A DNA stretch of 64,000 nucleotides from Candidatus Woesearchaeota archaeon (GTDB lineage: Archaea > Nanobdellota > Nanobdellia > Woesearchaeales > GW2011-AR9): contig JABIJM010000030.1 in assembly GCA_018655525.1 (NCBI GenBank), forward strand, positions 28,083-92,082, read 5' to 3'. Both the position numbers and the translations under genes were made by a program. The notes beneath the pieces were generated by a model, which worked only from the letters and a program-made list of their open reading frames with translations, did no database searches and had not been told where the DNA came from. Positions 427 through 52,727 of the stretch are shown in pieces. Each line of letters starts with the position of its first letter. Positions within the stretch are counted from its first letter, which is position 1.

Positions 427-1710
427 CTATTTCTTCTTTTTCGCATTAAATGTGAAACCAAAGATTTTAAGAGGCCGATTTTTCTTTTTATAATTCCGAT
501 AGTAGTAATAATACAATCCACCGAGTACAATTAAAATGAACACGAAGAAGCCAGTACTACTTTTTTCAATGATTCCAAATTTCTTTAATTCTGAGGTAGA
601 ATATAAGTCAAAGGTCAAATCAAACTGTTGTTGGAATGGTTTATTATTTGAATCAACATATTTTAATTTAACAGGAACATGTAGCACATCCCTTCTTTTA
701 TTCACATAAACATCAAGCTCTTCACTTTCTGTATCATCAGAATCTATATCACCAATGTAAAAATAATTTGTAGGAGAAACCAATTTATAATCTTCTGATT
801 CTTCTAAAATTAATTCTACAAATTTTACATCTGCAGTCCCTGCATTCGCAATTCCAAGTGTAATTTTTCCAGATTCACCTGATTGAAAAACCGTAGTTTT
901 CTTAATAAAAGGACGAACTTTAGGGACATCCCCCACAGAAACTGCTAAAAAGTCATCAAGAGAATATGCACTTCCTTTCTCATCATTATATGTAATGGTC
1001 ACTGGAACTTTATATAATCCAGGTGTTGCATCAGGTTTTGCAATAATCCGAAATGTTAACGCATCTTGAAAATCATTATTTAAGTTAGAGATTCTCCTTT
1101 CAGAAGAACTTTGGAATGGTGCTAATGGAATATCGTCACCATCAAAATCTAATTTGAATTTAATATCTTTTAATAAAGAATCTGCTTCATTTTTGACAAC
1201 AATCGTTACTTTAGCATCTTCTCCTGGTGCAACTTGTTCTGGTTCAGATTTAATAGAAATAATATCTAAGATTGCATCCTGTGTTTGCACATCAATTAAA
1301 AATTGATCATCAACAAATGTTACTGAATTTGTGCCTAAGTTTACTTCTACTTCTAATTCAAGATCACCTTCAACTGCATCCTCATCAACTTTCAAGGTAA
1401 AAGTAACATATTCTGCATCTGCTCCGGTAGAACTTGCACGTAATTTCCCGAGGTTTTTAGAAGCTGATTCCCCGTACATTTTAAAGGGATATTTTGGATG
1501 TAAAGTCATAATTGCATCTTTATTTGTTTCTTCAGCTTGATTCTCTATTTTAAACTTCACATCAAAAATTTGACCGGGTTCAACTGGATCAGGGGTCTGT
1601 GAAACTAATGTGACAGAGATATCTGAAACGTCTGCAACTGCCAAAGGAATTAATGACAAAAGAAAAATGCTAAGTACAACTAATAAAATTGTTTTTTTTG
1701 AAACCACCAT
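427..1710 (-). CDS. Secreted or cell-surface protein with N-terminal signal/TM, beta-sandwich (CARDB-like) repeats, C-terminal TM and a short basic tail
   Basis: N-terminal hydrophobic segment, acidic repetitive body, C-terminal FFVFILIVLGGLYYYY TM followed by a KKKNRPLK tail. It lies directly upstream of the FtsX-type permease on the same strand. Confidence 0.45.
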   Translation of the reverse strand: MVVSKKTILLVVLSIFLLSLIPLAVADVSDISVTLVSQTPDPVEPGQIFDVKFKIENQAEETNKDAIMTLHPKYPFKMYGESASKNLGKLRASSTGADAEYVTFTLKVDEDAVEGDLELEVEVNLGTNSVTFVDDQFLIDVQTQDAILDIISIKSEPEQVAPGEDAKVTIVVKNEADSLLKDIKFKLDFDGDDIPLAPFQSSSERRISNLNNDFQDALTFRIIAKPDATPGLYKVPVTITYNDEKGSAYSLDDFLAVSVGDVPKVRPFIKKTTVFQSGESGKITLGIANAGTADVKFVELILEESEDYKLVSPTNYFYIGDIDSDDTESEELDVYVNKRRDVLHVPVKLKYVDSNNKPFQQQFDLTFDLYSTSELKKFGIIEKSSTGFFVFILIVLGGLYYYYYRNYKKKNRPLKIFGFTFNAKKKK

Positions 1711-3467: not shown

Positions 3468-5171
3468 TTGATGAAAGACACTGTAAGAAAATTTGTTTTG
3501 AAAAATGCATTAGATTTCAAAGGAAGCGTGAATCCAAAAGCAATTTTAGGTTTAATTCTACGAAGTTCTCCAGAATTTAAAAAAGATTTTCAAAAGTTAA
3601 ACAAAGAGATTGAATCTTGTATTGCAGATATTAAAGATAAAGATCTCAAAGACATTAAAAAAGAATTAGAAAAATTAGATCCAAACCTTCTAAAAGAAAA
3701 AAAGAAAGAAGTGCCTAAAGGTCCACTTAAACCATTACGAAATGCAGAGAAAGGAAAGGTTGTTGTAAGAATTGCACCATCTCCTTCCGGTGCGTTACAT
3801 ATTGGACATGCTTATGGTTCTTCATTAAACGCATTATATGCACAAATGTATAATGGAAAATTTATTCTAAGAATTGAAGATACAAATCCTGAAAATATCT
3901 ATTCTGGTGCCTACAAACTCATAGAAGAAGATGCACAATGGTTAACAAATAACAATGTATCTCAAGTGATTATTCAATCTGAACGATTAGAAACATACTA
4001 CAAACATGCAAAAACGCTCGTTGATAAAGAAAATGCATATGTTTGCACATGCGATGCAGACACCTGGCGAGAGATGAAAAACAATGGTGAAGCGTGTGCC
4101 TGTAGAAGCTTACCAATAAAAGAACAGCAAGATCGTTATCAAAAAATGTTTAAGGGATTTGCGGAAGGTGAAGCCGTTTTACGTTTAAAAACAGATATTA
4201 AACATAAAAATCCCGCAATGCGAGATTTCGGATTAATGAGGATTAACGATCATTTGCATCCAAAAACAAAAAAAGCAAGCAGAGTGTGGCCATTGATGGT
4301 TCTTTCAGTTGCAATTGATGACCATGAACTCGGTGTAACTCATGTTCTCAATGGAAAAGATCATGCAGATAATGCAAAGAAAGAAACCATGATAATGGAA
4401 CTTCTAGGTTGGAAAGCACCTGAATATCAACATTGGGGAAGAATCAATTTTGAAGGATTTACATTAAGCACATCTAAAACAAGAATAGCAATTGAACAAA
4501 ATGAATATACAGGATGGGATGATGTACGCTTACCTTTTTTACCTGCATTACGTAAACGAGGATATCAATCAGGTGCATTCCAAAAATTCTCAAGTGAGAT
4601 TGGACTTTCACTTACTGATAAAACAGTAAGTGTAGAAGAATTCTGGAAAATGATTAATGCATTCAATAAAGATATCATTGAACCTACTTCAAACAGATAT
4701 TTCTTTGTAGAAGCACCAGTTAAAGTCACGATTAAAAATGCGCCTGAAAAAGAAGTAAAGATAGATTTACATCAAGAAGATAAAAAGCGAGGTGCACGAA
4801 CTTTACAAGGAAAAGGAAAAATTCTCATTCAGAAGAAAGACCGTAAAGATTTAGTTGAGAAAAGAACACACAGATTAATGGATTATTGCAATTTTGAAGT
4901 TAAAGGCGAAGGTGAAACGTTTTCTTCTCAAGATTATGAAGATTACAAAAATGCTGAAAACAAAGGAAAAATAATTCATTGGCTTCCAGATTCAAACGAT
5001 TTAATTAACGTAGAGATTATCATGGGAGACAATTCACGGTTACAAGGAAAAGGAGAATCTGGATTAAAAAATGTAAAAGAAGGTGACATCGTTCAATTTG
5101 AACGATTTGCCTTTGCCAGATTAGATAAAAAGGAAAAAAACAAGCTTGTATTTTGGTACTTGCATAAATAA
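3468..5171 (+). CDS. gltX: Glutamyl-tRNA synthetase, archaeal/eukaryotic type
   Basis: Class I HIGH motif (RIAPSPSGALHIGHAYG), LSTSKT (KMSKS-like), archaeal GluRS length and domain order. An AT-rich TATAAAGG box sits about 60 nt upstream. Confidence 0.85.
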   Translation: MMKDTVRKFVLKNALDFKGSVNPKAILGLILRSSPEFKKDFQKLNKEIESCIADIKDKDLKDIKKELEKLDPNLLKEKKKEVPKGPLKPLRNAEKGKVVVRIAPSPSGALHIGHAYGSSLNALYAQMYNGKFILRIEDTNPENIYSGAYKLIEEDAQWLTNNNVSQVIIQSERLETYYKHAKTLVDKENAYVCTCDADTWREMKNNGEACACRSLPIKEQQDRYQKMFKGFAEGEAVLRLKTDIKHKNPAMRDFGLMRINDHLHPKTKKASRVWPLMVLSVAIDDHELGVTHVLNGKDHADNAKKETMIMELLGWKAPEYQHWGRINFEGFTLSTSKTRIAIEQNEYTGWDDVRLPFLPALRKRGYQSGAFQKFSSEIGLSLTDKTVSVEEFWKMINAFNKDIIEPTSNRYFFVEAPVKVTIKNAPEKEVKIDLHQEDKKRGARTLQGKGKILIQKKDRKDLVEKRTHRLMDYCNFEVKGEGETFSSQDYEDYKNAENKGKIIHWLPDSNDLINVEIIMGDNSRLQGKGESGLKNVKEGDIVQFERFAFARLDKKEKNKLVFWYLHK

Positions 5172-6309: not shown

Positions 6310-7098
6310 ATGTGGATTCATACACTTAACCCAGTACTTCTTAGCTTAGGACCATTAGAAATCAGATGGTATGGCATATCCTACGTTCTTGGATTTTTTC
6401 TAACTATATGGTGGATGCAATACATGCGGAAAAAGGGAGAGTTAAATCTCTCTAAAGACGAAGTATGGGATTTTGGATTCTGGATTCTTGTTGGAGTGAT
6501 TGTAGGATCACGTTTATTTGAAGTATTCTGGGAACCAGCACTTTATCTTACAAATCCACTTAATTTTCTCTATATATGGAAAGGTGGCATGAGTTTTCAT
6601 GGTGGTTTTGTAGGAACACTTGTTGCAGTGTATTGGTATTCAAGAAAGAAGCATCTTAATATCGCAAAGGTCTTTGACATTCTTGCAGTACCAACAATAT
6701 TTGCATTAGGATTAGGAAGAATCGCAAATTTTTTCAATGGAGAATTATGGGGACGCCCATTTAATGGAAATTGGTGTGTAAACTTCAAAAATACAGGAGG
6801 AGGAGATGTATGCAGGCACCCTTCAACATTATATGCAGCTGGAAAAAGATTCCTTGTGTTTGGATGGTTGTTATTCCTTGCATTAAAAAATAAGTTCAAA
6901 CCAGGTTTCATTGCATTAAATTTTGTATTTTGGGAGGGGCTAGGACGATTTATCGTTGACTTTTACAGAGATGAAAAAGTATTTTATCTTGCAAACACCT
7001 TCACAATGGGACAAATCCTTAGTGCAATTATGGTAGTTGTAGCAGGTTGGATATTGTTAAAACATTACAACGCAGAATGGAAAAAGATTTTAAAGTAA
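6310..7098 (+). CDS. lgt: Prolipoprotein diacylglyceryl transferase
   Basis: N-terminus LGPLEIRWYGISYVLGF, GGMSFHGGFVG, and the Lgt signature LGRIANFFNGELWGRP. Multi-TM, 262 aa. Confidence 0.8.
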   Translation: MWIHTLNPVLLSLGPLEIRWYGISYVLGFFLTIWWMQYMRKKGELNLSKDEVWDFGFWILVGVIVGSRLFEVFWEPALYLTNPLNFLYIWKGGMSFHGGFVGTLVAVYWYSRKKHLNIAKVFDILAVPTIFALGLGRIANFFNGELWGRPFNGNWCVNFKNTGGGDVCRHPSTLYAAGKRFLVFGWLLFLALKNKFKPGFIALNFVFWEGLGRFIVDFYRDEKVFYLANTFTMGQILSAIMVVVAGWILLKHYNAEWKKILK

Positions 7099-7114
7099 GT
7101 TCTTTCTTAATGTT

Positions 7115-7474
7115 ATGAGACACATACTATTAATTGTAATTACCCTACTTTTTCTTGTTGGATGTTCACAAGAAGTTCAACAACCAATACAAGAATCCAC
7201 TGAACTCCCACTAGAAGTTGAATTTAGTAATCCGAATCCTAAAACACATCACATTTTAATTGACTATACTATGAAGCCATCAACATTAAACATCAATAAA
7301 GGAGATTCTGTAGTATGGTTAAATACACATGATTCTTATAGCAATTTAATCTTCAGTGAATTTGATATCATTATTCCTGGAAAAACAATCATAGAAAAAA
7401 CATTCCTAAGTGTCGGAGAATATTATTATACTGCTAAAGAAACTGGGAATAGTGGTATTGTGAGAGTTAATTGA
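7115..7474 (+). CDS. Putative lipoprotein with a cupredoxin-like beta-sandwich but no Cu ligands
   Basis: Signal peptide ending in the lipobox LVGC|S, 17 nt downstream of lgt. Plastocyanin-like GDSVVWLNTHDS segment, but no C-terminal Cys/His/Met copper ligands. Confidence 0.45.
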   Translation: MRHILLIVITLLFLVGCSQEVQQPIQESTELPLEVEFSNPNPKTHHILIDYTMKPSTLNINKGDSVVWLNTHDSYSNLIFSEFDIIIPGKTIIEKTFLSVGEYYYTAKETGNSGIVRVN

Positions 7475-7517: not shown

Positions 7518-9281
7518 TTAACTATAATACCAATTCCCATTGGATTTCTGTTCTCTATCTTTTACAGAATGCGGCTTATTGATTCTTGGTCTATTAGATG
7601 TAACATCTCTACGCAAGGTGATTCCAAGTTCTTTTAAGAAAAGATTCATTCCATCTTCCATCGAGAATGGGCCACGTAATAAACCTTCTTTTGCAGGAAC
7701 TCCTGTAAAAACTGCAAGTTTGTGAGATAAATTATCAAGAAACATTAAATCGTGATCTACAATGAGAATAGTGATATCTCGTTCAGCTGCAACATTTTTA
7801 ATTAATTTTGATACTGCAAGACGTTGCTCGATGTCAAGATATGCAGAAGGCTCATCCAATAAAAATAATTCAGCATCTTCAGCAAGACATTTGGCAATTG
7901 ATACTCGTTGTAATTCTCCACCAGAAAGATCACATAATTTTTGCGTAAACAATTTTTCTAAATCTAAATGATTCACAAGTTGAGCGCTATATTTTGCAAT
8001 CGCTTCATGAATATATTCCGCAACCAAAGTCTCAGATTCCGTATCTAAATATTGAGGTTTGTACGCAACTTTCACTTCAGAATCTAATTCTCCAGAATCT
8101 AATTTATGGACACCTGCAAGAAGTTTGATAAAAGTCGTTTTACCAATACCATTTTCTCCTAAAATACCGATCACTTCTCCTTTGTTAAGAGTTCCTTCTT
8201 CTGTCCTAAATTTAAAATTTCCTAATGTTAAACTAAGATTTTTCCATGAAATTAAAGGAACAGGAATTGCAGTAGACACGTCTTTAAATGTTTCAAATTT
8301 AATTGCTCTTGGTCTAAATCGTACATTTTCTTCTTTCAAAAATCCTTCTAAAAATGAATTAATTCCTTCTCGTGTACTTTTCACACCAGAAACAATTCCG
8401 AATGCTCCTTCATGACCATACATGATATTCAATAAATCAGTCATATAATCAAGAATAATTAAATCGTGTTCAATTACGATTGTTGAGGTATCTTCTTTAG
8501 CTAAGGATGCAATAAATTTTGAAATATTAATTCTCTGTTTAATATCTAAATAAGAAGTTGGCTCATCAAACAGAAATAAATTTGCCTCTTTTAAAACACA
8601 AGCAGCAATTGCAACTCTTTGCAACTCTCCACCTGAAACTTTTGAGATGTGAGTTTCTAAAAAATTTGTAAGTTCTAACTTTTCAGCCATTTCTTCAAGT
8701 TTATTCTTCGCATCAACTTTTGTTAATAATTCTCGTACAGTTCCATCAAACTGTTTAGGGATCAAATCAACTTGTTGAGGTTTATAAGAAAGATTAATTT
8801 CATTTTTACCAAGTTTCTCCATGAATTTTTGTGTTTCAGTACCTTTGAAATAATTAATAACTTCTTTGAAATCTGTATCTTTTTTCCAATCACCTAAATT
8901 AGGTGTAAGAATATTCGCCATGACTTTCATAGCGGTAGATTTTCCGATTCCATTCTTTCCAAGAATTCCCGTTACTTTTCCAAATAAAGGTGTAGGTAAA
9001 GAATAAAGTTCAAACATGTTTTCTCCATATCTATGAACGGGAGATTTTGTTAATGTACCTGGAAGATTAATAATTTGAATCGCACCATAAGGACATCGTG
9101 TAGGACAGATCCCACATCCTGTACAAAGAACTTCGTCTATCTTTGCTTTCTTATCAATTTCTCCTTCAGTGATACAATCTCCACCCATCCGATTTACAGG
9201 ACAAAGTTTCATACAGAGATAATTTCCACATTCTTGAGGGTGACATTTGTTCTTGTCAATAATCGCGATTCGCTTTTTCAT
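7518..9281 (-). CDS. abcE1: ABCE1 / RNase L inhibitor (ribosome recycling ATPase)
   Basis: N-terminal double 4Fe-4S ferredoxin motifs (CHPQECGNYLCMKLCP; CTGCGICPTRCP) followed by two ABC ATPase domains with Walker A, signature and Walker B. 587 aa. Confidence 0.9.
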   Translation of the reverse strand: MKKRIAIIDKNKCHPQECGNYLCMKLCPVNRMGGDCITEGEIDKKAKIDEVLCTGCGICPTRCPYGAIQIINLPGTLTKSPVHRYGENMFELYSLPTPLFGKVTGILGKNGIGKSTAMKVMANILTPNLGDWKKDTDFKEVINYFKGTETQKFMEKLGKNEINLSYKPQQVDLIPKQFDGTVRELLTKVDAKNKLEEMAEKLELTNFLETHISKVSGGELQRVAIAACVLKEANLFLFDEPTSYLDIKQRINISKFIASLAKEDTSTIVIEHDLIILDYMTDLLNIMYGHEGAFGIVSGVKSTREGINSFLEGFLKEENVRFRPRAIKFETFKDVSTAIPVPLISWKNLSLTLGNFKFRTEEGTLNKGEVIGILGENGIGKTTFIKLLAGVHKLDSGELDSEVKVAYKPQYLDTESETLVAEYIHEAIAKYSAQLVNHLDLEKLFTQKLCDLSGGELQRVSIAKCLAEDAELFLLDEPSAYLDIEQRLAVSKLIKNVAAERDITILIVDHDLMFLDNLSHKLAVFTGVPAKEGLLRGPFSMEDGMNLFLKELGITLRRDVTSNRPRINKPHSVKDREQKSNGNWYYS

Positions 9282-9715: not shown

Positions 9716-9832
9716 GCCTCTGTAGCATAGTGGCTAATGCGTCTGCCTCGTAAAATCTAGGTTTCCTTGATTTGTTCAGAAATCTTGATTTCAGACAGCA
9801 GAAGATCGGGAGTTCAAATCTCCCCAGGGGCT
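9716..9832 (+). tRNA. tRNA-Thr (anticodon CGU) with a 44-nt canonical intron (9753..9796) after position 37
   Basis: Hand-folded cloverleaf. Acceptor GCCTCTG/CAGGGGC (one G-U), U8 A9, D-arm GCAT-AGTGGCTA-ATGC, anticodon stem TCTGC/GCAGA interrupted by the intron, T-arm GGGAG-TTCAAAT-CTCCC, discriminator U. Oligo-T follows. Confidence 0.75.
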
Positions 9833-11387: not shown

Positions 11388-12131
11388 ATGATCATAAGCT
11401 TTTTTGAAGAATATCCCACAAAAGAAAACCTTGCAAAACTTTCTCTTATAGAAAATCCAACAAAATTATACATTGGAGCAAAATCTCTGAAAGAATTCAA
11501 CCAAATCAAATCTACAATAAATAACCCTTATGTCAAAGAAATAATATGGTGGATTCTCTTAGAAAACAATGAAGGGTACTGGTTTTCTCCATTTACAAAG
11601 ACAACCGCATTAAAACGTGTATTTGAAGAAGCAAAAGACACACCCGTTATGATTGATGCCGAATATCCATTACGACATAGCCCTTGGTTATTCTTCACAC
11701 AACTACCTTCTTTTTTCAAAAATAGAACTTTAATTAGAAATTTCATTAAGAATCATAAAAATATTTACGTTGCAGAGTATTTTCCAGAAGGAAATTGGAA
11801 AGATAAATGGATGCATTTTATGGGCATGCATTTTGATGCAAATATATATAATTGTAAAACGATGAAAATGATTTATCATTCAATTGTTCCTTACCTTAAA
11901 GGTGGAATCACAAAGAAATTTCAAAGAGCAAAAAGACTCTACAAAGACAACTACATTCCAGGTTATGGCACAATTGCTACAGGTGTTCTTGGAAACGAAC
12001 CAATTCTTAAAACAACTCAATTAGAAAAAGATTTACAACATGCAAAAGATGCAAATATGAAAGAAGTTGTCATTTTCAGATTAGGTGGTCTTAACAAAAA
12101 TTATAGGGATATAATCAAAAGATTCACTTAA
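11388..12131 (+). CDS. Hypothetical protein
   Basis: 247-aa ORF with coding-like composition. No motif recognised. Confidence 0.35.
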   Translation: MIISFFEEYPTKENLAKLSLIENPTKLYIGAKSLKEFNQIKSTINNPYVKEIIWWILLENNEGYWFSPFTKTTALKRVFEEAKDTPVMIDAEYPLRHSPWLFFTQLPSFFKNRTLIRNFIKNHKNIYVAEYFPEGNWKDKWMHFMGMHFDANIYNCKTMKMIYHSIVPYLKGGITKKFQRAKRLYKDNYIPGYGTIATGVLGNEPILKTTQLEKDLQHAKDANMKEVVIFRLGGLNKNYRDIIKRFT

Positions 12132-13219
12132 AATAAATATCTCAGAAATCTCAAGAATCTAGGTTCCCTAAGCAATACATGCGAAATTAAAGGGATTGGA
12201 TTATCTCTGGTATATCTTTCAAAAACTTTCTGAATTTTTGGTTGTGCAACATACCCTACTAAATGATCCCAATCACCATCACTAAATTTCTCCATTATCT
12301 TCTGTACTTGAAGATGTGTCCACATTTGTTTCCGTAGCGGTTTCATCTCTTTATACAAATCCTTTCCATTCAAAATGCAATCAACTGTAATTTGAACTTG
12401 CTGAAACGCTGGTACAATGCCTCCAAGTGTTGTCGCTTTAACATACGAAGAAGCATCTCCTACAACATAACAGTTTCCTTTCTTCAACTTTTGCTTGGGA
12501 TGATACAAAGGAATTGTGCCTGCTTGCATCTCTTTAACTTTCCATCCACGTCCTTCAACAAACTTTTCAAAGAATACACGTGAATTTTTCTTCATTGCTA
12601 AACCAACTCTCGCCAGATGCTGAGATTCAGGAGTCACCCATGCAAATAATCCTGGACACACATCACTTCCAAAGTATGTTTTAATTACATTTGGTTCAAA
12701 ATTTCCTTCCATTACTGCTTGAATCCCATAATAGTTCTCTCTTCCTTCATGATATAGACCAAAAGCTTTCGCTGTGGAACTTAATGGACCATCAGCAGCA
12801 ATGACAACATCTGCAGTAACGCGTTTCTCTTTACCTTCATTAACAACCACTAAATCATTACCTTCTTTACGGACAAAAGTATGATTTAAGAAAAATTTTG
12901 CACCTTCTTTCTCTGCAATCTTAGAAAAATACTGATCAAACTTTGTTCTACAAACAATGTAGTCTTTTTGTTTTATTTCTAATTTTTTCTTTGGAGAATA
13001 AACTTTAATTGTATCAATGGTATTTACCAAGTAATCTTCCATTGGAAAATTGAATTGATCAAAAGATGAGGTTAATATGCCTGTACATTGGATAGGTGCA
13101 CCAATCTTAGCATGGTTCTCATAAATAGAAACTTCTTTGCCTTCTTTTGCAAGTAAATATCCTGCATAACATCCTACTGGTCCACCTCCAATAATAGCTA
13201 TTTTCATTTTAGAATCCAA
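12128..13219 (-). CDS. Geranylgeranyl reductase family FAD-dependent oxidoreductase (archaeal lipid saturation)
   Basis: Rossmann dinucleotide-binding N-terminus (MKIAIIGGGPVGCYAGYLLAKEG...SIYE) and the downstream PIQCTGIL motif typical of GGR. Confidence 0.75.
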   Translation of the reverse strand: MDSKMKIAIIGGGPVGCYAGYLLAKEGKEVSIYENHAKIGAPIQCTGILTSSFDQFNFPMEDYLVNTIDTIKVYSPKKKLEIKQKDYIVCRTKFDQYFSKIAEKEGAKFFLNHTFVRKEGNDLVVVNEGKEKRVTADVVIAADGPLSSTAKAFGLYHEGRENYYGIQAVMEGNFEPNVIKTYFGSDVCPGLFAWVTPESQHLARVGLAMKKNSRVFFEKFVEGRGWKVKEMQAGTIPLYHPKQKLKKGNCYVVGDASSYVKATTLGGIVPAFQQVQITVDCILNGKDLYKEMKPLRKQMWTHLQVQKIMEKFSDGDWDHLVGYVAQPKIQKVFERYTRDNPIPLISHVLLREPRFLRFLRYLF

Positions 13220-13312: not shown

Positions 13313-14641
13313 TTAATAATATGTTTGTTCTTCGTCTTCGTCGTCTTTACGTAAACGGCTGAAACCGATGATTAAACCAATTAATACTAGTAATACAACT
13401 AATACAATTAAAGCTAATTCTAATCCGTTTCTTAAACTTACTCCGTCTTCACCAGCAACTACGTTTGCATTTAGGCTTACAGTTTCTAAAACTTCATCGC
13501 CTGCTTTAACAGCTACAGATGCTACGTGATTACCAGCAGCAGCGTCTCCAGAGACAGCTACATTAACGTAAACAACTTTGTTTTTACCAGGTTCTAATAC
13601 TACTAAGTTGTCACTGAATGAAGCAGTTGCCCAGTCACCAGTTACAGCTTCTAAAGTATAAGCTTTTGAAGTTGTTCCAGCGTTGGTTAATGCTACACCG
13701 TATGTTGCTGTTTTACCGGTTGCAACAGTTTGTGTTGAAGGACCAACAGCTAATACTAACTTATCAGATCCTGCAAACTTACTGTCTGCTACTACGTGTA
13801 CGGTTCCTGTTTTTGTAACAGTTTCTCGTAAATCATCATACATTGCAGTTACTTTGATTTCGTAATCACCTTCTGCGGTACTTGCAGGGATAGGTAAGAA
13901 CATTTCTTCAACATCTTCGTAATCTACATTGTGGTTATCTGTTTTTACAACGTCAACGTATTTACTTGTGGTAACTCCTAAAGCAGGAATACTTACAGTA
14001 ACTTTAACGTCTTTCTGATCTTTGTCACCGAAGTTCTCTAAAAGAACGGTAGGGTGAATTGATCGTCCAGCTTTAACAGTAGAACCAGGGAATAATGTTA
14101 CTTCCTTAATATCTAAAGCATGACGTGCAGGTTCAACATTTAATTTTACAACTCTTCCAATAGGAGCAGATGCACTATTATAAATGTTTAAGTGTAACCA
14201 ATATACTTGCTTATCTAAGTTTTTAGGTAAGTCAATGTTTAACTTAACAGTTTTTTGTGTATTTGCAGCCATATCAAACAGATGTGTTGAATCGCTTAAT
14301 TTTTCATAATCAGAGTATTCATAACCCTTGATCTTTGCTTCAACTTCAACGTTTTGAACTGCTTCTTTAGTGAAAAGAGTTACTTCAACTTGCATCTTTT
14401 CTCCTTCTTCAACAGTTACGGAAGGTACATTTACTGCAACATTCCCGTTGAAATCCACTACATCTTCACCAATTTTATTTCCATTAACATCTAACACGTT
14501 TACTGCTTTGTTTCCAAAGCTTACACTATTGCCATCTACTTCTACTTCCCATGCGAAGTTGGAATCATCCAAAGCTACCACGCTGGAAACCATAAGTAAA
14601 CTGATGACGAATAATGCCATTATACTTACTATTTTTTTCAT
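13313..14641 (-). CDS. Cell-surface protein: signal peptide, tandem beta-sandwich (CARDB/Ig-like) domains, C-terminal TM and acidic tail
   Basis: N-terminal MKKIVSIMALFVISLLMVSSVVA signal. C-terminal LALIVLVVLLVLIGLIIGF TM plus RLRKDDEDEEQTYY tail. Confidence 0.5.
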   Translation of the reverse strand: MKKIVSIMALFVISLLMVSSVVALDDSNFAWEVEVDGNSVSFGNKAVNVLDVNGNKIGEDVVDFNGNVAVNVPSVTVEEGEKMQVEVTLFTKEAVQNVEVEAKIKGYEYSDYEKLSDSTHLFDMAANTQKTVKLNIDLPKNLDKQVYWLHLNIYNSASAPIGRVVKLNVEPARHALDIKEVTLFPGSTVKAGRSIHPTVLLENFGDKDQKDVKVTVSIPALGVTTSKYVDVVKTDNHNVDYEDVEEMFLPIPASTAEGDYEIKVTAMYDDLRETVTKTGTVHVVADSKFAGSDKLVLAVGPSTQTVATGKTATYGVALTNAGTTSKAYTLEAVTGDWATASFSDNLVVLEPGKNKVVYVNVAVSGDAAAGNHVASVAVKAGDEVLETVSLNANVVAGEDGVSLRNGLELALIVLVVLLVLIGLIIGFSRLRKDDEDEEQTYY

Positions 14642-14771
14642 TTTATTCTTCCTCCAAATCTAATTTTCAATTTTGGAATATGTTTTCTCGTCAAAACGAA
14701 GATTGTTTTTTAAACCTTTCGTTGTTTTGAGTATGGTTGAGTAACTACACCTAATAACTATTGTAAAATAA

Positions 14772-16817
14772 TTATTGGATGGTTACTGTTCTGTACACCA
14801 CACTATTGTGGTGGTCGTTGCTTACAGTCAACACAAGAGTATAAGTTCCTGGTTGAACGTCATATGGCACATTTACGTAAAGGGTCTTCGTTTCTGAATC
14901 TCCTTTTTTCAAGTCAAACTCTCCTGAAGTTCCATACATATTTGCGTCATAAACGAATGCTCGGATGTTTGTATCATCCCAGTCTTCGTTACCATTATTC
15001 TTTACATGTACTCCTACAGTGATATAATCCCCAGGTGTTGCCACTTCTGGTAACACGTGTACGGATGAAATCTTTGTATTTGCGTACCCTGCACGAACTG
15101 TAATTGTAAATGTTTGTGAGAAAGATTGTTTCCCATCATTGATTGCTAAAATCACTTCATGAGATCCTTCTTCTGCAACCCATTCAACTAAACCTGTTTT
15201 TGATACTTTCATACCAGCAGGTCCTTTTACAACATAATATTGGATTGGTTTATCACTTTCAGCTAAAATCTGATAGGTATAATCTTCACCATCTGTTGCG
15301 GTTGTAACTGGTGTTGATACGATTTTCAAAGTATCAACGATTACAGGATTTACTGGATCACAAGCATCTCCTTTACCATCTTTATCTGTATCTTTTTGAT
15401 CAGGGTTAAATGTTAAAGGGCAGTTATCTTGACCATCTGGGATTCCATCTTTATCAGAATCTAAGATTACAACGCCAACACCAATCTTGTAAGATTGTGT
15501 GGTAATTCCTCCAAATCCATCTGCAACTTGTACAGACACATCAAAAGAATTTCCTGAATCTGTTGCAATAGGAGTCCAACTTACGATACCGTTAACAAGA
15601 TTCATTCCTGCAGGTTTTTGTGTTAAACTTACAGTTAATGCATCATTATCTGCATCACTTGCTTTTACAGCATAAGTATATTCAACACCAACAGTTGCGG
15701 AATGACCTGGTTGAGAGGTAATTGTTGGATCTCTGTTTACATCTGCAACAGTAATTGTTACAGTTTGTGATTCAGAGTATGTTTTTCCATCATAAGATTG
15801 AAATTTAATTTTCACATCTTTTGATGTTGCAGGATGTTGAACAAAGTCAAATCCTGGCGTAATGGTGAATTTTCCTGTAGATTCATCAAAGGTTACTTCT
15901 TTAGGTAAAGCCGTACTTTTGAACATGTTATTTACTTGACATCCAAATTCAAACCATTTACATGATTTTAAATTTGTAACATCTTTCGCAACATAACTAG
16001 ATCCACCAGAAACTGTGAAAGTTTTTGATACTCCTTCATTAACAATGTGGTTTTTTACACCTACTTCTAAGGTAGGAGGTTTGTTTTGATCAACAACAGT
16101 TAATTGAACAGTTGCTTTTCCGATTCCACCCTTACCATCATTTCCTTCAAAAACAACATCATATGTTCCTTGATCTTCAAAGGTTGGTTGCCATGAAAAA
16201 GTATATACAGCTCCCCATTTTTGAATGTTAGATCCTTTTGGTAAATTGTTACTTGTTACAGTTACAACATCACCATCTACATCAGAAGGTACAATTACAA
16301 AGTTAAAGTAAACATCTTCATTTACTGTTTTTTTGTATACTTTAGCTGGTTTTGATTGTACTACTTCTAAATCAGGCATGGTTAATTCTGGATTGTTATT
16401 ACCAGATAAAACGTTTAATTCTAAAAAGTCTGTTTTAATAGAATTGCTATCTGCAAGTTTTACGGTAACAACATAGTTTCCTACTTTATCATTATAATTT
16501 TTAGGAACAACAGTAATTTCTTCGTATGCTATATTCTTTGTATCAATTGTATTTTGAGCTACAACACCAACAATGTTTCCTGTTGCCTTATCATTAATTT
16601 GAACTGTTAACAATACACTATTTTCAGGAGATGAGAAATATCCTGTTGCAAATTTTGCTGATTGACCGTTCACAATAGTTTTACTCATTGATCCGTCATC
16701 CCATGCAAAAAGTTGTTTACCTTGAGCTGCTTGTGTCCAATCTACTTGTGCAACTGCTGCACTTGAAACTAGCATTAAAGCAAACATAAGTACAATTAGA
16801 TGTTTAAATATATTCAT
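14772..16817 (-). CDS. Large secreted adhesin-like protein with Ig/cadherin-like domains and thrombospondin type-3 (Ca-binding) repeats
   Basis: Signal peptide. [35 protein letters not shown] is a TSP3-type DxDxDG repeat. Many beta-sandwich repeats. Confidence 0.5.
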
Positions 16818-17830
16818 TTTTTACTCTCACTTCCTCTACAATATCCTAATGCTACTCCAAAGAATTTATCTCCTTCAGTTGAGATCATTGCTGTAGGTGT
16901 AACACATACACCGTGACCATTTCCAGCTTCAATTCTGATTGGAACTGCTAATCTTACATAAGGTGAAATAGATTCATCAACGCCACCTTTCTGATCAAAA
17001 GAACCTGCGCCTTGCATTACAACACCATCAATTGCTTTTGAGACATAAGTAGATTCGTTCCATGTAGTTTCTTTACTTAATACTCCAGCTGTGAATCCTA
17101 AACCAAGACCTACACGACTTCCATTGTAAAGTAAGGTATTGTTTTGTAATGATAATCCTAAAGCGGTTGCTGATAATTGTGCATCACTAGTACTATCTTC
17201 AGTTAATGTTAAACTTCCAGCTAATGGACCTTTTGCTGCATCTTTTACAACTTGATCTTTGTTAATTAAAGTCTCACCAGAATATAATCCTACATGAGCT
17301 CCTAAACTCCAATCTCTTCCGGTAGGATGATATCGTAATCCAATATCAATTCCGGTTGTGTTTTGGATATTTCTATTTGATTCTGCTAAAACTCCATAAA
17401 CCCCACCAAGTTCAACTTCAGGTAAACCTGCTAATGTTGGAACATGGTTTGTGATTGTTTTTGTAATTGTTACAGGTGTTGCAGCATAAGATAATCCTAC
17501 TGGTGTTGCACTTCCAGGTAAAGTTACCCCACGTGCCATTGTAACTTTAGTTGCACCATCAGGTAATCCTACTGGTGTTACTTTTTGTGGTAAACCAACA
17601 ACATCATCTAAACTTGCGTTAGAAGGTATAGTTACGGTTCTTTTTGTTGTAAAATTGTAAGTTGTTTTTCCATCCTGAACGTTTTGAACTTGAACAGTTG
17701 TTTGTGGTGCTTTAGCTAATACACTTGGTGCGTATGCTGCTACTGCTAATCCTGCTGCTAATACAACAGGCGCAACCACTTTATTTTTTAAATATGTAAA
17801 CATTTTATTGTCCTCCTTGATTCCTTGCAT
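16814..17830 (-). CDS. Secreted Gly/Thr-rich protein with alternating-hydrophobic, beta-strand-like segments
   Basis: Signal peptide [15 protein letters not shown]. Repeated GLxxG / GVALGY patterns. 4-nt overlap with the upstream gene. Confidence 0.35.
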
Positions 17831-18506
17831 GTAGAGAATCTAATTTTTTTTGAAATTCATCATAAGAAAATGATTGTGTCCCTGCAACTTCTGGAAAATT
17901 ATAATCTGCTCCTTTCACTCTAGCTGCAAGAGTTTGTGGCGCTGGATTAGTCTTTCCTAATACACGACAAAAGTTAGGAGTTTCTTCAACAGTATCTAAT
18001 TTAGAATTTTTTAAATAAGGACGAGAACTTCTTTTTCGTTTCCCAAAGCCATCAACGCCAATGCTTAAACCATTTTCATCAATTGACAATACAATCTCTT
18101 CTTTGCCTTCAAGAGCTCTTTGTGATTGTACTCTGTATTTATTCCAAAATCTTTTGTGAGGGTGACGTGGATTTTCAGCAAAGCATGCATCGTTATGTTT
18201 CATAACTGCAAATAATAAACTTTTCTTCACACCATCCATTTCAAAGTATTTTACAGGAAAGAAATTTGTTTCTCCTTCCTTAACAACATAACCTAATTCA
18301 CCAGTATGTTGAGTTTTAGATTCCTCAATGGAAGGGCCATTATATTCTACAGTGACTTCAGTTCTAGTCTGAGGTAAAACTGGAGACATACATCCTCCTA
18401 AAGCAGACGCTATGTAAATTCCACCGGCAACGATTGCCGTTTTTACAGTTGATTCTAAAATTGATTTATATGACATTTTATTTCTCCTCCTAATACGGAA
18501 CCTCAT
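17805..18506 (-). CDS. Putative lipoprotein or membrane-anchored protein
   Basis: N-terminal TM ending in SALGGC|M, a weak lipobox (LGGC). Confidence 0.35.
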   Translation of the reverse strand: MRFRIRRRNKMSYKSILESTVKTAIVAGGIYIASALGGCMSPVLPQTRTEVTVEYNGPSIEESKTQHTGELGYVVKEGETNFFPVKYFEMDGVKKSLLFAVMKHNDACFAENPRHPHKRFWNKYRVQSQRALEGKEEIVLSIDENGLSIGVDGFGKRKRSSRPYLKNSKLDTVEETPNFCRVLGKTNPAPQTLAARVKGADYNFPEVAGTQSFSYDEFQKKLDSLHARNQGGQ

Positions 18507-19692
18507 CGGTTTCTAATTGTTTTCTAAACCTTCTCACACGAGGAGATCTTCTTGTTCGTTTTCTTGAACATCGTTCTTTTAATGAATCGTATTTACCTTG
18601 CAAATTACTATAGTCTGAATTGCATTTATTAAGATCATTTACAACCCATCCAACAGATTGTGAATCACCGTTAGCTAAAGTTATCATTCGTTTATCATTA
18701 TCTTGACAGACACCTAATTTTTGCTCTAAAGTCGCTTTAGCTGTATTAGCAGATTTTAATTTACCATCTAATTCAGTTACTTTTGCTTCAGAAGTGTTTA
18801 ATTTTCCACGTGTTGTATCTAATTCAGCCTGTGCTGTCTCGTACAATCCTTTATTTGCATTTGCATCCGCTAATTGTCCAGCATCTGGCCTTTGACTTAA
18901 TACATAAGTAATAGTTGCCAAACCTGCACTTGCAACTAATGCAACACCTGCAACAATTTTTGCAAGGTTTCCATATCCAATTGCCTTTCGTTGAGAATTA
19001 ACATGACCAAGACGTAATCCAGTATAAGATTTTCTTCCTTCTGAACCAAGTTGTAAATAATCAATAACTTTTTCTTCTGCAATCACAACATCATGATTTA
19101 ATGTTATGATAGCGGATCTCTTTTCTCCAAGTTCATTAGTTAAAGAAGCTAACTCAACATTACCTTTATCATCTAATTTTCCATTATCTCTTGATTTTTC
19201 AAGCAGTTTAATATCTTCAAGATCAACAGTATATTCTCCTTCAAGACCTACAAGTGTTAATTTTTTATTATAATAATCACCTTGATCTAAAGATTTATCA
19301 ATCCAAGAATCTACAACTTCTAAACTTCCTGCACCATAAACTTGATTAAGTGAATCATATGCCGCAAGTGCAAATTTAGAGTTATATGCCGCTAATTTGT
19401 CTAATGTATTTACTAAATGAGCTTCAACTTCTCCAATTCCATTATTTTCAAGAACGCCTAATATTCCATCTTTTTTCCTATAAAGACCCCGTACTTCATC
19501 TGCAAATTCATTTACAAATAAAGCCTTAGTATCAGGAAATTGAAGTCCTTCATGTGCATATTTTTTTTCAATTCCTTCAATTCTATCAAGAAGATTGCTT
19601 TGGTATAAAGGAATTGTTACTGTATCGTTAACATTACCGTCGCCAGCACGCTTTGTATCATTATTATTATCAGTCATAATTATAACCCCCAA
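18490..19692 (-). CDS. Coiled-coil protein with one internal TM segment and an Arg-rich C-terminus
   Basis: Long heptad-like region (LEQKLGVC..., LDGKLKSANTAKATLEQKL), TM IVAGVALVASAGLATITYVLS, C-terminal RKRTRRSPRVRRFRK. Confidence 0.4.
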   Translation of the reverse strand: MGVIIMTDNNNDTKRAGDGNVNDTVTIPLYQSNLLDRIEGIEKKYAHEGLQFPDTKALFVNEFADEVRGLYRKKDGILGVLENNGIGEVEAHLVNTLDKLAAYNSKFALAAYDSLNQVYGAGSLEVVDSWIDKSLDQGDYYNKKLTLVGLEGEYTVDLEDIKLLEKSRDNGKLDDKGNVELASLTNELGEKRSAIITLNHDVVIAEEKVIDYLQLGSEGRKSYTGLRLGHVNSQRKAIGYGNLAKIVAGVALVASAGLATITYVLSQRPDAGQLADANANKGLYETAQAELDTTRGKLNTSEAKVTELDGKLKSANTAKATLEQKLGVCQDNDKRMITLANGDSQSVGWVVNDLNKCNSDYSNLQGKYDSLKERCSRKRTRRSPRVRRFRKQLETDEVPY

Positions 19693-21159: not shown

Positions 21160-21864
21160 TTGATTTTTATTTTTAAGACACTCCAATCTTTTGTATTGCG
21201 AAAAGATGAGAGGTCAACGAAAATGAAAAATAAAGAGACATTAGCTGAAATCATTGGAATAATGCTTGGAGATGGTTGTTTGTACAAAGGACACGGATCA
21301 TATCAAACAATAATTACTTCTGGAAAAAATGAAAGAGAGTGGATAATGTATGTTAAAAATTTATTTGAAAACTATTTTGAGAAAACATTTAAAATTGTTG
21401 AAATCAAGTATGGGATTCAAGCAAAATGTCATTCAAAGGAAATTTTAGAGAAATTTTTAGAGGTGGGATTATGTCATGGAAATAAAGTCCATAATAAAGT
21501 CACGATCCCACCCTGGTTATTTCTTAAGAGAAAGTATTTAATTAAAACTGTTCAAGGTTTATTTGATACAGACGGTTGTGTTTATAATAAATATGGGAAA
21601 TATGCTCAAATTGAATTTAAATTTGGTTGTGAAGAAACAACAATATCTGTTTGTAACGCCGTAAGTAATTTGGGTTTTAATACTACAAAAGTTCAAAAAC
21701 AATATAATAATGCAACAGGCAAATATAGGTGGAGATTCTACTTATGTAGACAAAAAGAGATTGATTTATTTTTTGATATAATTAAACCAAAAAATTCTAA
21801 ACATATTGAAAGATATAAAAAAATAAGAAGTGGGGATACTGGGACTTTCAAATGGAAACGTTAA
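21160..21864 (+). CDS. LAGLIDADG homing endonuclease (double-motif; probable start at ATG 21223, MKNKETLAEIIGIMLGDGCL)
   Basis: Two LAGLIDADG motifs (IIGIMLGDGCL; VQGLFDTDGCVY). Paralog of 52946..53662. Confidence 0.7.
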   Translation: MIFIFKTLQSFVLRKDERSTKMKNKETLAEIIGIMLGDGCLYKGHGSYQTIITSGKNEREWIMYVKNLFENYFEKTFKIVEIKYGIQAKCHSKEILEKFLEVGLCHGNKVHNKVTIPPWLFLKRKYLIKTVQGLFDTDGCVYNKYGKYAQIEFKFGCEETTISVCNAVSNLGFNTTKVQKQYNNATGKYRWRFYLCRQKEIDLFFDIIKPKNSKHIERYKKIRSGDTGTFKWKR

Positions 21865-28263: not shown

Positions 28264-28710
28264 TCAATCTACAATAAAATGATTATTTTCCTCGTTGCTT
28301 TCTGGAACGTGATTTAATCCATCAACAAGTATACTCAAATCCTGACAATTTTTGTTTGAAACATTACTATTTTCCAAAACAACATAAATAGATTCTCTCC
28401 CATAAGAACCAAAAGGTGATGCAATATTGTGTGTATGGACAGAATTAAATTTCTTTCCACCATTGCCAAAATGGTGAATGGTTTGTACATCAAAAGGGAC
28501 ATATATTGCATTTGGCGAATTGTTTACAACATCAAAATGAAAATGGTATTTGGTAGTTTGATTTCCATCCTCTCTCTCAAAATGAACCAGTTCTATTCCT
28601 AAATCAGGAAGACCAACAGAACTTTGAGGTTCAGACTCACAAGCATAAAGCGAACATGCAAGGGCAATCCCTGTAATTACCTTTCTTAATATCACGAGTG
28701 ATATGCACAA
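28264..28710 (-). CDS. Small secreted or membrane-anchored hypothetical protein
   Basis: N-terminal hydrophobic segment VITGIALACSLYAC then a His-rich domain (HFHFDV, HHFGNGG). Confidence 0.35.
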   Translation of the reverse strand: MCISLVILRKVITGIALACSLYACESEPQSSVGLPDLGIELVHFEREDGNQTTKYHFHFDVVNNSPNAIYVPFDVQTIHHFGNGGKKFNSVHTHNIASPFGSYGRESIYVVLENSNVSNKNCQDLSILVDGLNHVPESNEENNHFIVD

Positions 28711-52627: not shown

Positions 52628-52727
52628 GGGCCTGTAGCCTAGCCTGGATAGGGCGCCAGCCTTCTATATGAGAAAGCAATTCTCTGAAGGCAGCTGGATA
52701 CCGTGGGTTCGAATCCCTCCTGGCCCG
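52628..52727 (+). tRNA. tRNA-Arg (anticodon UCU) with a 25-nt intron (52667..52691) after position 37
   Basis: Acceptor GGGCCTG/CTGGCCC (one U-U), D-arm GCCT-AGCCTGGATA-GGGC, anticodon stem CCAGC/GCTGG around loop CUUCUA+A, T-arm GTGGG-TTCGAAT-CCCTC (one U-U), discriminator G. Confidence 0.55.

What the first reader, a model, noticed from the sequence alone, without database searches (positions are those of the whole stretch)
6310..7474. Bacterial-type Lgt sits directly upstream of a lipobox-bearing substrate in an archaeal genome
Every informational gene in the window is archaeal (ABCE1, Topo VI, aIF5B, aEF-1beta, Hef). Yet 6310..7098 carries the full Lgt signature (GRIANFFNGELWGRP, GGMSFHGG), and the next gene, 17 nt downstream, begins with a signal peptide ending in LVGC|S. 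Bacterial-type lipoprotein lipidation is not part of the standard archaeal envelope model. An enzyme-plus-substrate pair suggests the pathway is functional here. The substrate is a cupredoxin-like fold lacking Cu ligands, which is unusual in itself.
Basis: partly seen in the sequence, partly recalled or inferred. Interest (0 to 1): 0.75.

Follow-up and report, generated by a model that had tools for sequence, protein, structure and literature searches.

The report
Bacterial-type lipoprotein machinery in a Woesearchaeon
A DPANN (Woesearchaeota) archaeal genome segment encodes genuine homologues of both bacterial lipoprotein-maturation enzymes, Lgt and Lsp, together with lipobox-bearing substrates, although recent papers state that these enzymes are absent from archaea.

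Summary
ORF 6310..7098 is a full-length Lgt: PF01790 225 bits, TIGR00544 189 bits (above its cut-off), and a confident AF2 model whose only PDB match is E. coli Lgt. The motifs and most essential residues are intact. ORF 7115..7474, 16 nt downstream, starts with a canonical lipobox signal peptide (LVGC|S). It is a cupredoxin homologue that has lost all four Cu ligands.

Archaeal genes lie on both sides of lgt, its composition matches the window, and independent assemblies repeat the gene order. Lgt belongs to a large group (at least 120 clusters at 55-82% identity) in which every organism-named member is Woesearchaeota, Nanoarchaeota or "archaeon". More divergent members (39-46%) also sit in archaeal contexts. 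The nearest verified bacterium is 43-45% identical. This is therefore neither contamination nor recent transfer.

The core clade carries two substitutions in the pocket that holds the lipid's glycerol, Y235E and E243D. The lipid donor is unknown. The family is known and databases annotate these genes automatically, but I found no paper that notes them.

The parts
6310..7098 (+). lgt: prolipoprotein diacylglyceryl transferase homologue, 262 aa
   Evidence: PF01790 225.5 bits. TIGR00544 188.7 bits, cut-off 118.9. AF2 model pLDDT 91.5, with 5azb as the only PDB match (E 5.6e-15, TMq 0.78). Y26, H103, D129, R143, N146, E151, G154, R239 and R246 are conserved; Y235 is E209 and E243 is D217.
7115..7474 (+). 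119-aa predicted lipoprotein, a cupredoxin-like domain without Cu ligands, probably co-transcribed with lgt (16-nt gap)
   Evidence: The lipobox LVGC|S is conserved in the two informative homologues, P0122 (IVGC|A) and P0123 (IVGC|T); P0121 is 97% identical. It is 30% identical (pairwise E 2e-8) to the L008 lipobox cupredoxin, which scores above threshold for PF13473 and PF00127 and has the H/C/H/M ligands. A profile search of PDB gives plastocyanins as the top four hits, E 0.012-0.058. The protein itself has no Pfam hit.
7115..7165 (+). signal peptide plus lipobox, MRHILLIVITLLFLVG|C; the Cys+1 codon is 7163..7165
   Evidence: Read directly from the sequence; matches the lipobox pattern.
34339..34782 (+). 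lspA: lipoprotein signal peptidase (signal peptidase II), 147 aa
   Evidence: PF01252 119.2 bits, gathering 25. TIGR00077 115.5 bits, cut-off 73.95. S. aureus Lsp 6ryo E 1.5e-22, with the catalytic Asp motifs GNFIDR and FNIAD retained. 100% identical to NCBI 'signal peptidase II [Candidatus Woesearchaeota archaeon]'. The same archaeal neighbours (eIF-1A, Dna2-like) appear in three independent assemblies.
50769..51335 (+). cyclophilin-type peptidyl-prolyl isomerase with a lipobox signal peptide (MKTTILILGLLTVLFIAG|C)
   Evidence: Lipobox pattern; PF00160 178.5 bits.
17805..18506 (-). weaker lipoprotein candidate of unknown function (…IYIASALGG|C when started at 18476)
   Evidence: Lipobox pattern from an internal start. 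No Pfam or NCBIfam hit.
12128..13219 (-). geranylgeranyl reductase family protein; context for the lipid type of the host membrane
   Evidence: TIGR02032 164.3 bits, cut-off 158.8; GGR_cat 25.2 bits.
3468..5171 (+). archaeal-type glutamyl-tRNA synthetase, the upstream archaeal flank of lgt
   Evidence: TIGR00463 gltX_arch 527 bits, cut-off 402. The order NTP_transf_2-GluRS-178aa-PRC-LGT is conserved in L002, L004 and L005; L006, which is cut at its 5' end, has 178aa-PRC-LGT.
7518..9281 (-). ABCE1/RLI, the downstream archaeal flank of lgt
   Evidence: NF009945 796.6 bits, cut-off 469. An RLI gene lies 0.4-6.2 kb downstream of lgt in the window, L001, L003 and L005.

Best explanation
The window comes from a Woesearchaeota (DPANN) archaeon that carries a long-resident, bacterial-type two-step lipoprotein maturation pathway.

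Inferred steps:
1. Sec exports precursors whose signal peptides end in a lipobox. Examples are the 119-aa cupredoxin-like protein immediately downstream of lgt and a cyclophilin.
2. Lgt (6310..7098) transfers the dialkyl- or diacyl-glyceryl moiety of a glycerophosphoglycerol membrane lipid onto the thiol of Cys+1.
3. Lsp (34339..34782) then cleaves the signal peptide in front of the lipidated Cys.

Shown here: the homology, the intact catalytic motifs, the fold, the archaeal genomic context, the co-occurrence of Lgt, Lsp and lipobox proteins, and the breadth of the archaeal clade.

Inferred only: enzymatic activity and the identity of the lipid donor. The donor could be archaetidylglycerol or bacterial-type phosphatidylglycerol. 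The clade-specific Y235E and E243D changes lie in the pocket that holds the reactive glycerol C3 and may reflect a different donor. The lgt-lipoprotein adjacency is a locally conserved co-transcription unit, not a dedicated enzyme-substrate module.
For: Lgt membership.

Essential residues: invariant in 37 archaeal and 39 bacterial sequences. There are 42 invariant columns across 56 Woesearchaeota-type sequences with 58% mean column identity, which indicates purifying selection.

Lsp in the same window, with its Asp dyad.

Lgt and Lsp homologues share contigs in two other assemblies, judged by identical longest-contig lengths: 796,844 bp (P0113 and P0354) and 71,631 bp (P0101 and P0352).

Lipobox proteins: three in the window, and canonical ones near lgt in L005, L008, L087, L088 and L090.

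Not contamination: archaeal genes lie within 2 kb on both sides. GC is uniform. lgt has GC 0.357 against 0.328±0.029 for the window's genes, and its codon-usage distance ranks 53 of 71. Independent assemblies repeat the synteny.

Not recent transfer: all of the top 120 hits are 55-82% identical, and all 14 hits that carry an organism name are Woesearchaeota, Nanoarchaeota or 'archaeon'. Representatives at 39-46% identity also sit beside archaeal ribosomal, exosome, proteasome, Sec61beta or aIF5B genes. The best named bacterial hit in the genome scan is 43% identical.
Against: There is no biochemical evidence.

In E. coli Lgt, Y235F/L/S and E243A/Q/R are inactive (PMC4728403). The core clade has E and D at these positions, so the chemistry or substrate may differ.

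Archaeal membrane lipids are sn-glycerol-1-phosphate ethers, and no Lgt has been shown to use them. The window encodes a geranylgeranyl reductase family protein, which suggests isoprenoid lipids.

Only 64 kb of the genome was seen, so the AliA/AliB pathway could also be present and do the work.

NJ bootstrap support is modest: 71/100 for the core clade and 26/100 for a single archaeal origin.
Confidence: 0.8

Rival explanations
1. The segment is bacterial contamination or a chimeric assembly. On this view lgt (and lsp) belong to a bacterium and were joined to archaeal DNA by the assembler or by binning.
For: Lgt and Lsp are otherwise bacterial hallmarks. One Lgt homologue sits on a 1,980-bp contig binned as 'Methanosarcinales' (L033), which shows that mis-binning does occur in such data.
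Against: lgt lies inside a 64-kb window of uniform GC and has unremarkable codon usage. An archaeal GluRS lies 1.1 kb upstream and ABCE1 0.4 kb downstream. The same gene order recurs in NCBI, JGI, ENA and Logan assemblies from different samples. The lsp locus recurs in three assemblies next to eIF-1A. Nine further homologues were checked on contigs of 9-797 kb, and all have archaeal neighbours.
Confidence: 0.02
2. Recent horizontal transfer from a bacterium into this one organism. On this view the gene is a sporadic, possibly non-functional passenger.
For: Woesearchaeota are reported to carry many bacterial-derived systems, including sigma-70, GroEL, the MEP pathway and fatty-acid genes (PMC8204110).
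Against: At least 120 clusters (90% identity level) at 55-82% identity are all archaeal where named. The best named bacterial hit is 43% identical. Composition is ameliorated. Synteny with archaeal genes is conserved between genomes whose Lgt proteins are only 57% identical. Catalytic residues are invariant. The ultimate origin may well be an ancient transfer from bacteria, which is compatible with the best explanation.
Confidence: 0.03
3. The Lgt homologue is real and resident but has been repurposed. It would catalyse a different transfer, with another lipid donor or acceptor, while lipobox proteins are lipidated by the archaeal AliA/AliB system.
For: The core clade has E at position 235 and D at position 243. 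In E. coli, Y235F/L/S and E243A/Q/R abolish activity, and Y235 hydrogen-bonds the C3 oxygen of the glyceryl moiety. Among 205 sampled sequences, E235 is confined to the core clade and one adjacent, unverified representative. AliA is reported in DPANN 'with some gaps' (PMC12462473).
Against: H103 (peptide binding and catalysis), R143, R239, Y26 and the whole signature motif are invariant. A cognate Lsp, which in bacteria acts only on Lgt-modified precursors (established knowledge), is kept in the same genomes. One lineage also has a Lit homologue 2.4 kb from lgt, next to a lipobox protein. More divergent archaeal Lgt keep Y235.
Confidence: 0.12

Closest known systems
Bacterial Lgt (E. coli Lgt, PDB 5azb/5azc; PF01790, TIGR00544)
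   Same: Same family and fold (TMq 0.78). The HGG motif and the GR(I/L)(A/G)NFxNGELWG signature are present. Y26, H103, R143, N146, E151, G154, R239 and R246 are conserved. A lipobox gene lies next to it and Lsp is in the same genome.
   Different: The host is an archaeon. Identity to E. coli is about 30%, and 43% to the nearest named bacterium. The head domain is shorter (262 vs 291 aa) and has an invariant Cys pair, C156/C168. Y235 is E and E243 is D in the glycerol-C3 pocket and the head hydrogen-bond network. The lipid donor is unknown.
AliA/AliB (arCOG02177/arCOG02178) of Haloferax volcanii, the only experimentally supported archaeal lipoprotein lipidation components (PMC12462473, PMC13631571)
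   Same: The proposed role is the same: thioether lipidation of the lipobox Cys in an archaeon. AliA is reported to share two active-site arginines with Lgt and may derive from it.
Bacterial Lsp / signal peptidase II (S. aureus 6ryo, P. aeruginosa 5dir; PF01252, TIGR00077)
   Same: ORF 34339..34782 scores above both curated thresholds and retains the catalytic Asp dyad motifs.
   Different: The host is archaeal. Reviews state that no archaeal SPase II has been identified.
Halocyanin of Natronomonas pharaonis, an archaeal blue copper lipoprotein (J Biol Chem 1994, pmid 8195126, seen in the reference list)
   Same: It is a small cupredoxin-family protein with an N-terminal lipobox in an archaeon. 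The L008 homologue next to lgt is a ligand-complete cupredoxin lipoprotein.
   Different: The window's 119-aa protein has none of the His/Cys/His/Met ligands, so it cannot be a type-1 copper protein. Its function is unknown.
Lit, lipoprotein intramolecular transacylase of Firmicutes (PF07314)
   Same: An archaeal contig (L088) with a 42%-identical Lgt encodes a PF07314 protein (91.5 bits) 2.4 kb away, directly after a lipobox thioredoxin-like gene.
   Different: It was not found in the window, and it belongs to another archaeal lineage.

Membership tests
Lgt (prolipoprotein diacylglyceryl transferase) | Full-length match to PF01790 above the gathering score | tested here: met
   225.5 bits against 24.9, profile positions 1-238 of 240.
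Lgt (prolipoprotein diacylglyceryl transferase) | NCBIfam equivalog TIGR00544 above its curated cut-off | tested here: met
   188.7 bits against 118.9.
Lgt (prolipoprotein diacylglyceryl transferase) | Signature motif G142-RLGNFINGELWG-154 and the H103-GGL motif | tested here: met
   GRIANFFNGELWG and HGGF are present. H, R, N, E and G are invariant in 37 archaeal sequences.
Lgt (prolipoprotein diacylglyceryl transferase) | Essential residues Y26, R143, N146, E151, G154, R239 and R246 | tested here: met
   All are conserved in the window protein. All are invariant across the archaeal set except Y26 (36 of 37; the remaining sequence has a gap there) and R246 (34 R, 3 K).
Lgt (prolipoprotein diacylglyceryl transferase) | Y235 and E243 of the buried hydrogen-bond network; mutation-intolerant in E. 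coli | tested here: not met
   E209 and D217 in the window. E in 30 of 37 and D in 34 of 37 archaeal sequences; Y and E in 39 of 39 bacterial sequences. These are conservative or clade-specific replacements, not loss of the site.
Lgt (prolipoprotein diacylglyceryl transferase) | Seven-transmembrane Lgt fold | tested here: met
   AF2 pLDDT 91.5. The only PDB hit with E below 0.001 is 5azb (E 5.6e-15, TMq 0.78).
Lgt (prolipoprotein diacylglyceryl transferase) | Transfer of the diacylglyceryl group from phosphatidylglycerol to the lipobox Cys | not testable with these tools
   This requires an enzyme assay or complementation.
Lsp (signal peptidase II, peptidase A8) | PF01252 and TIGR00077 above threshold, with the catalytic Asp dyad | tested here: met
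   119.2 bits against 25, and 115.5 against 73.95. The Asp residues of GNFIDR and FNIAD align with those of S. aureus Lsp.
Lipobox lipoprotein precursor (7115..7474) | Basic n-region, hydrophobic h-region and [LVI][ASTVI][GAS]C within the first ~35 residues | tested here: met
   MRHILLIVITLLFLVG|C. The lipobox is conserved in the homologues. SignalP and LipoP were not available.
Lipobox lipoprotein precursor (7115..7474) | Actual S-lipidation and cleavage before Cys+1 | not testable with these tools
   This needs mass spectrometry.
Cupredoxin / type-1 copper protein (7115..7474) | Match to PF00127 or PF13473 | tested here: not met
   No Pfam hit even at E of 10 or less. Homology is inferred through the L008 cupredoxin (pairwise E 2e-8) and marginal plastocyanin hits (E 0.012). 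The AF2 model was unusable (pLDDT 41).
Cupredoxin / type-1 copper protein (7115..7474) | His, Cys, His and Met copper ligands | tested here: not met
   All four positions are substituted in the window protein and its two divergent orthologues, while L008 keeps them.
AliA/AliB archaeal lipidation system | Membership of arCOG02177 or arCOG02178 | not tested
   No Ali sequence or profile was available in the tools. The Lgt here is clearly PF01790, whereas AliA is reported to match it at only 29% HHpred probability.

The most novel reading that the evidence does not exclude
A major DPANN lineage (Woesearchaeota and relatives) matures its surface lipoproteins with a vertically inherited, complete bacterial-type Lgt-Lsp pathway, extended by Lit in some lineages. 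This would replace or supplement AliA/AliB. On this reading, the clade-specific remodelling of the glycerol-C3 pocket (Y235E, E243D) adapts Lgt to archaeal sn-glycerol-1-phosphate ether lipids. Alternatively, the enzyme uses genuine phosphatidylglycerol, which would imply bacterial-type or host-derived ester lipids in these archaeal membranes. Either outcome bears on the 'lipid divide' and overturns the published statement that Lgt and Lsp are absent from archaea.
Probability: 0.4. Interest if true: 0.85.

Novelty: new member of a known kind. Interest (0 to 1): 0.66.

Why it matters
Current reviews and primary papers state that no archaeal homologue of Lgt or Lsp exists, and they built the search for AliA/AliB on that premise. 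The sources are FEMS Microbiol Rev 2018, Nat Microbiol 2022, Nat Commun 2025 and mBio 2026.

Here, clear orthologues of both enzymes sit in archaeal chromosomes across a large uncultivated lineage. This could help explain why DPANN have many predicted lipoproteins while AliA has gaps there. It offers a natural test of whether an Lgt can use archaeal lipids, or whether these archaea hold bacterial-type lipids. It also qualifies the use of Lgt and Lsp as strictly bacterial markers or drug targets.

The question is directly testable by expressing the gene in an lgt-depleted bacterium or in vitro.

Tried and rejected
- AF2 of the 119-aa protein from a four-sequence alignment gave pLDDT 41, so no fold search was run on it.
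- Pfam at E of 10 or less gave nothing for that protein. Cupredoxin homology had to be established through L008.
- The sigma-70 promoter and terminator scan around lgt was no better than shuffled sequence and is not relevant to archaea.
- The genome-contig scan was dominated by bacteria that share WKGGMSFH and returned only two archaeal genomes. It gave bacterial outgroups but not the archaeal distribution.
- The listing of cluster members returned almost no organism names for divergent representatives. Their domain was assigned from gene neighbourhoods instead.
- NJ bootstrapping did not resolve a single archaeal origin (26/100). No maximum-likelihood program was available.
- The supplements of PMC12462473 are not held. 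Those of PMC8204110 hold no Lgt or Lsp terms.
- ARAGORN miscalled the intron-containing tRNAs.
- Contamination and recent transfer were considered and rejected (see the rival explanations).
Full report
**1. Observation**

The two ORFs exist exactly as reported. ORF 6310..7098 (+, 262 aa) matches Pfam LGT (PF01790) over its whole length with 225.5 bits against a gathering score of 24.9. It matches the NCBIfam equivalog TIGR00544 with 188.7 bits against a cut-off of 118.9. Its only sequence match in the PDB is E. coli Lgt (5azb, E 8e-32).

An AlphaFold2 model built from 56 homologues has mean pLDDT 91.5. Foldseek finds one significant PDB match for it, 5azb (E 5.6e-15, TM-score 0.78).

ORF 7115..7474 starts 16 nt after the lgt stop codon. 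It begins MRHILLIVITLLFLVG|C, a textbook Sec signal peptide ending in a lipobox.

I ran a lipobox pattern over all ORFs of at least 60 aa, in six frames and from every candidate start. It matched only three ORFs in the 64 kb, all of them real genes. The motif is therefore not a chance match.

**2. The window holds the second enzyme as well**

ORF 34339..34782 (+, 147 aa) is Lsp, the lipoprotein signal peptidase II:
- PF01252: 119.2 bits against 25.
- TIGR00077: 115.5 bits against 73.95.
- S. aureus Lsp 6ryo: E 1.5e-22, with the two catalytic aspartates retained in GNFIDR and FNIAD.

It is 100% identical to an NCBI protein named signal peptidase II [Candidatus Woesearchaeota archaeon].

Further lipobox proteins in the window:
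- A cyclophilin-type PPIase at 50769..51335 (MKTTILILGLLTVLFIAG|C; PF00160).
- A weaker candidate of unknown function at 17805..18506.

Five other secreted proteins carry ordinary, non-lipobox signal peptides.

**3. The genome is archaeal and the genes are resident**

- lgt is flanked by an archaeal-type GluRS (TIGR00463, 527 bits) and by ABCE1/RLI (NF009945, 797 bits).
- The window also encodes aIF5B, Topo VI A and B, Hef, aEF-1beta, eIF1A and Trm1.
- It encodes a geranylgeranyl reductase family protein (TIGR02032).
- It has three tRNA genes of 97-117 nt, lengths that imply introns.
- GC is flat at 0.30-0.35 across the window.
- lgt has GC 0.357 against 0.328±0.029 for all genes. Its codon-usage distance ranks 53 of 71.
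- The order NTP_transf_2 - GluRS - 178 aa - PRC-barrel - LGT recurs in NCBI, JGI and ENA assemblies from different samples. The shorter Logan contig L006 shows the 178 aa - PRC-barrel - LGT part.
- The lsp locus recurs next to eIF-1A in three assemblies.

Contamination and chimerism are therefore excluded for practical purposes.

**4. Distribution**

The 120 best database hits to Lgt are 55-82% identical. The 14 that carry an organism name are 8 Woesearchaeota, 5 Nanoarchaeota and 1 'archaeon'.

Representatives at 39-46% identity were checked by their neighbourhoods, or by name for P0126:

| Representative | Evidence for an archaeal host |
|---|---|
| P0126 | named Nanoarchaeota (name only, no neighbourhood check) |
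| P0129 | ribosomal proteins L21e, L15e, L31e, S19e; Rpb4 |
| P0274 | Sec61beta, Lhr |
| P0139 | exosome, proteasome, SBDS |
| P0146 | S19e, L31e, L15e |
| P0132 | aS21, aEF-1beta, Trm1, aIF5B |

The closest verified bacterium is 43% identical by tblastn in the genome scan and 45% in the representative search. It is the same protein, L009/P0135, and it lies beside DnaB.

In a neighbour-joining tree of 205 sequences, all verified archaeal Lgt fall in one 107-leaf clade without any verified bacterium. Bootstrap support for a single separating branch is only 26/100. The core Woesearchaeota clade has 71/100.

Lsp shows the same pattern. Named hits above 45% identity are Woesearchaeota or Nanoarchaeota, and the first named bacteria appear at about 44%.

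Lgt and Lsp homologues appear to share contigs in at least two other assemblies, judged by identical longest-contig lengths of 796,844 bp and 71,631 bp.

This is an old, vertically maintained feature of a large archaeal lineage. It may have come originally from bacteria, but it is not a recent transfer. 'DPANN-wide' is not demonstrated.

**5. Active site**

Y26, H103, D129, R143, N146, E151, G154, Y201 and R239 are invariant where aligned, and R246 is R or K, in 37 archaeal and 39 bacterial sequences.

Two positions differ systematically. Y235 is Glu in 30 of 37 archaeal sequences, and E243 is Asp in 34 of 37. All 39 bacterial sequences have Y and E.

In the E. coli structure, the Y235 hydroxyl hydrogen-bonds the C3 oxygen of the bound diacylglycerol. 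This is the carbon attacked by the cysteine. Y235F/L/S and E243A/Q/R do not complement (PMC4728403).

More divergent archaeal Lgt keep Y235 but vary position 243.

The core clade also has an invariant Cys pair (C156/C168) in a shortened head domain. I infer that this is an extracellular disulfide.

These changes may reflect a different lipid donor, but that is speculation. The geranylgeranyl reductase suggests isoprenoid lipids. Castelle et al. 2021 report bacterial fatty-acid and G3P dehydrogenase genes, and possible bacterial hosts, in some Woesearchaeota (PMC8204110).

**6. The downstream protein**

It has only three close homologues. All keep the lipobox, and one sits in the same position after lgt (L005/L006). 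It has no Pfam match, and its AF2 model is unusable (pLDDT 41).

A genome whose Lgt is 55% identical (L008) has the order lgt - DUF4870 - a 135-aa lipobox protein. That protein is a bona fide cupredoxin (PF13473 42.8 bits, PF00127 42.2 bits) with His, Cys, His and Met ligands. It is 30% identical to the window protein (pairwise E 2e-8).

In the alignment, all four ligand positions are substituted in the window protein and its two divergent orthologues. A profile search of PDB also ranks four plastocyanins first (E 0.012-0.058).

The lgt-cupredoxin linkage is locally conserved. It is absent from L002-L004 (Lgt 82% identical) and from L001 and L007. It should not be read as a dedicated enzyme-substrate module.

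**7. Comparison with what is known**

By every sequence and structure criterion this is a member of the Lgt family, apart from the two pocket residues. The accompanying gene is a true Lsp.

It is not AliA or AliB. Those are reported to resemble Lgt only marginally, at 29% HHpred probability. Whether this organism also has Ali genes could not be tested.

The literature held here states that SPII, Lgt and Lnt homologues have not been found in any archaeal genome (2018). It states that an archaeal SPase II is yet to be identified (2022) and that no archaeal homologues of Lgt or Lsp are known (2025). It also states that Lgt is 'absent from archaea', based on RefSeq genomes (2026).

Full-text searches that combined Lgt, Lsp or diacylglyceryl transferase with DPANN lineage names found no paper that reports these genes.

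Automated annotation in NCBI and IMG already names them. The sequences are therefore not new, but the finding appears unrecognised.

**8. Verdict**

The finding is real and correctly interpreted in its essentials. The kind of system is well known. The host domain, the pocket substitutions and the open question of the lipid donor make it of clear specialist interest and directly testable.

Noticed in passing
L088:11124-11855 (+), with L088:10631-11137 (+): An archaeal contig (Sec61beta, Lhr; Lgt 42% identical to the window's) encodes a Lit homologue, the lipoprotein intramolecular transacylase (PF07314, 91.5 bits). It lies 2.4 kb from lgt, directly after a lipobox thioredoxin-like gene. Lit is otherwise known from Firmicutes.
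   Followed up: partly
L008:10001-12893: In a genome whose Lgt is 55% identical, the gene order is lgt - DUF4870 membrane protein - lipobox cupredoxin with a full Cu site - a DAGK_cat lipid-kinase-domain protein (PF00781, 54.9 bits). A bacterial-type lipid kinase next to lgt may bear on the lipid-donor question.
   Followed up: partly
window 9716..9832, 52628..52727, 53619..53715: Three tRNA genes found by Rfam are 117, 100 and 97 nt long, which implies introns. ARAGORN in bacterial mode missed two and miscalled the third.
   Followed up: no
window 40344..42974 (-); also 21160..21864 (+) and 52946..53662 (+): An 876-aa ORF contains an intein with a LAGLIDADG endonuclease (PF14890, PF14528); the host protein was not identified. 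Two free-standing ORFs begin with LAGLIDADG-like GIM(L/I)GDGCL motifs and were not scanned.
   Followed up: no
window 53982..54668 (-): A permuted papain-like amidase / NlpC-P60 protein (PF05708 70 bits, PF00877 29.5 bits). This family usually acts on bacterial cell-wall peptides, which is odd for an archaeon and fits proposals that some Woesearchaeota associate with bacteria.
   Followed up: no
window 13313..19692 (-) and 427..1710 (-), 31884..33524 (+): A cluster of large secreted proteins with CARDB, He_PIG, Big_9 and cadherin-like domains and ordinary (non-lipobox) signal peptides; probably surface or adhesion proteins. ORF 28264..28710 (weak CARDB hit) has an atypical possible lipobox (…ALAC|S or LYAC|E).
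   Followed up: no
window 33926..34345 (+): A 139-aa ORF with no precomputed Pfam hit overlaps the lsp start by 7 nt. Gene callers call it in three independent assemblies. It is probably co-transcribed with lsp, and its function is unknown.
   Followed up: no
L033 (1,980-bp contig binned as 'uncultured Methanosarcinales archaeon'): It carries an Lgt 36% identical to the window's and falls among the archaeal Lgt in the NJ tree. It is probably a mis-binned DPANN contig, which could hint at a physical association with a methanogen host.
   Followed up: no
L087:10001-11432 and L090:4235-5781: In two divergent archaeal lineages, lgt is immediately followed by a triose-phosphate isomerase gene and lies near the ribosomal protein genes S19e, L31e and L15e. 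This is a second conserved archaeal neighbourhood for lgt, different from the window's.
   Followed up: no
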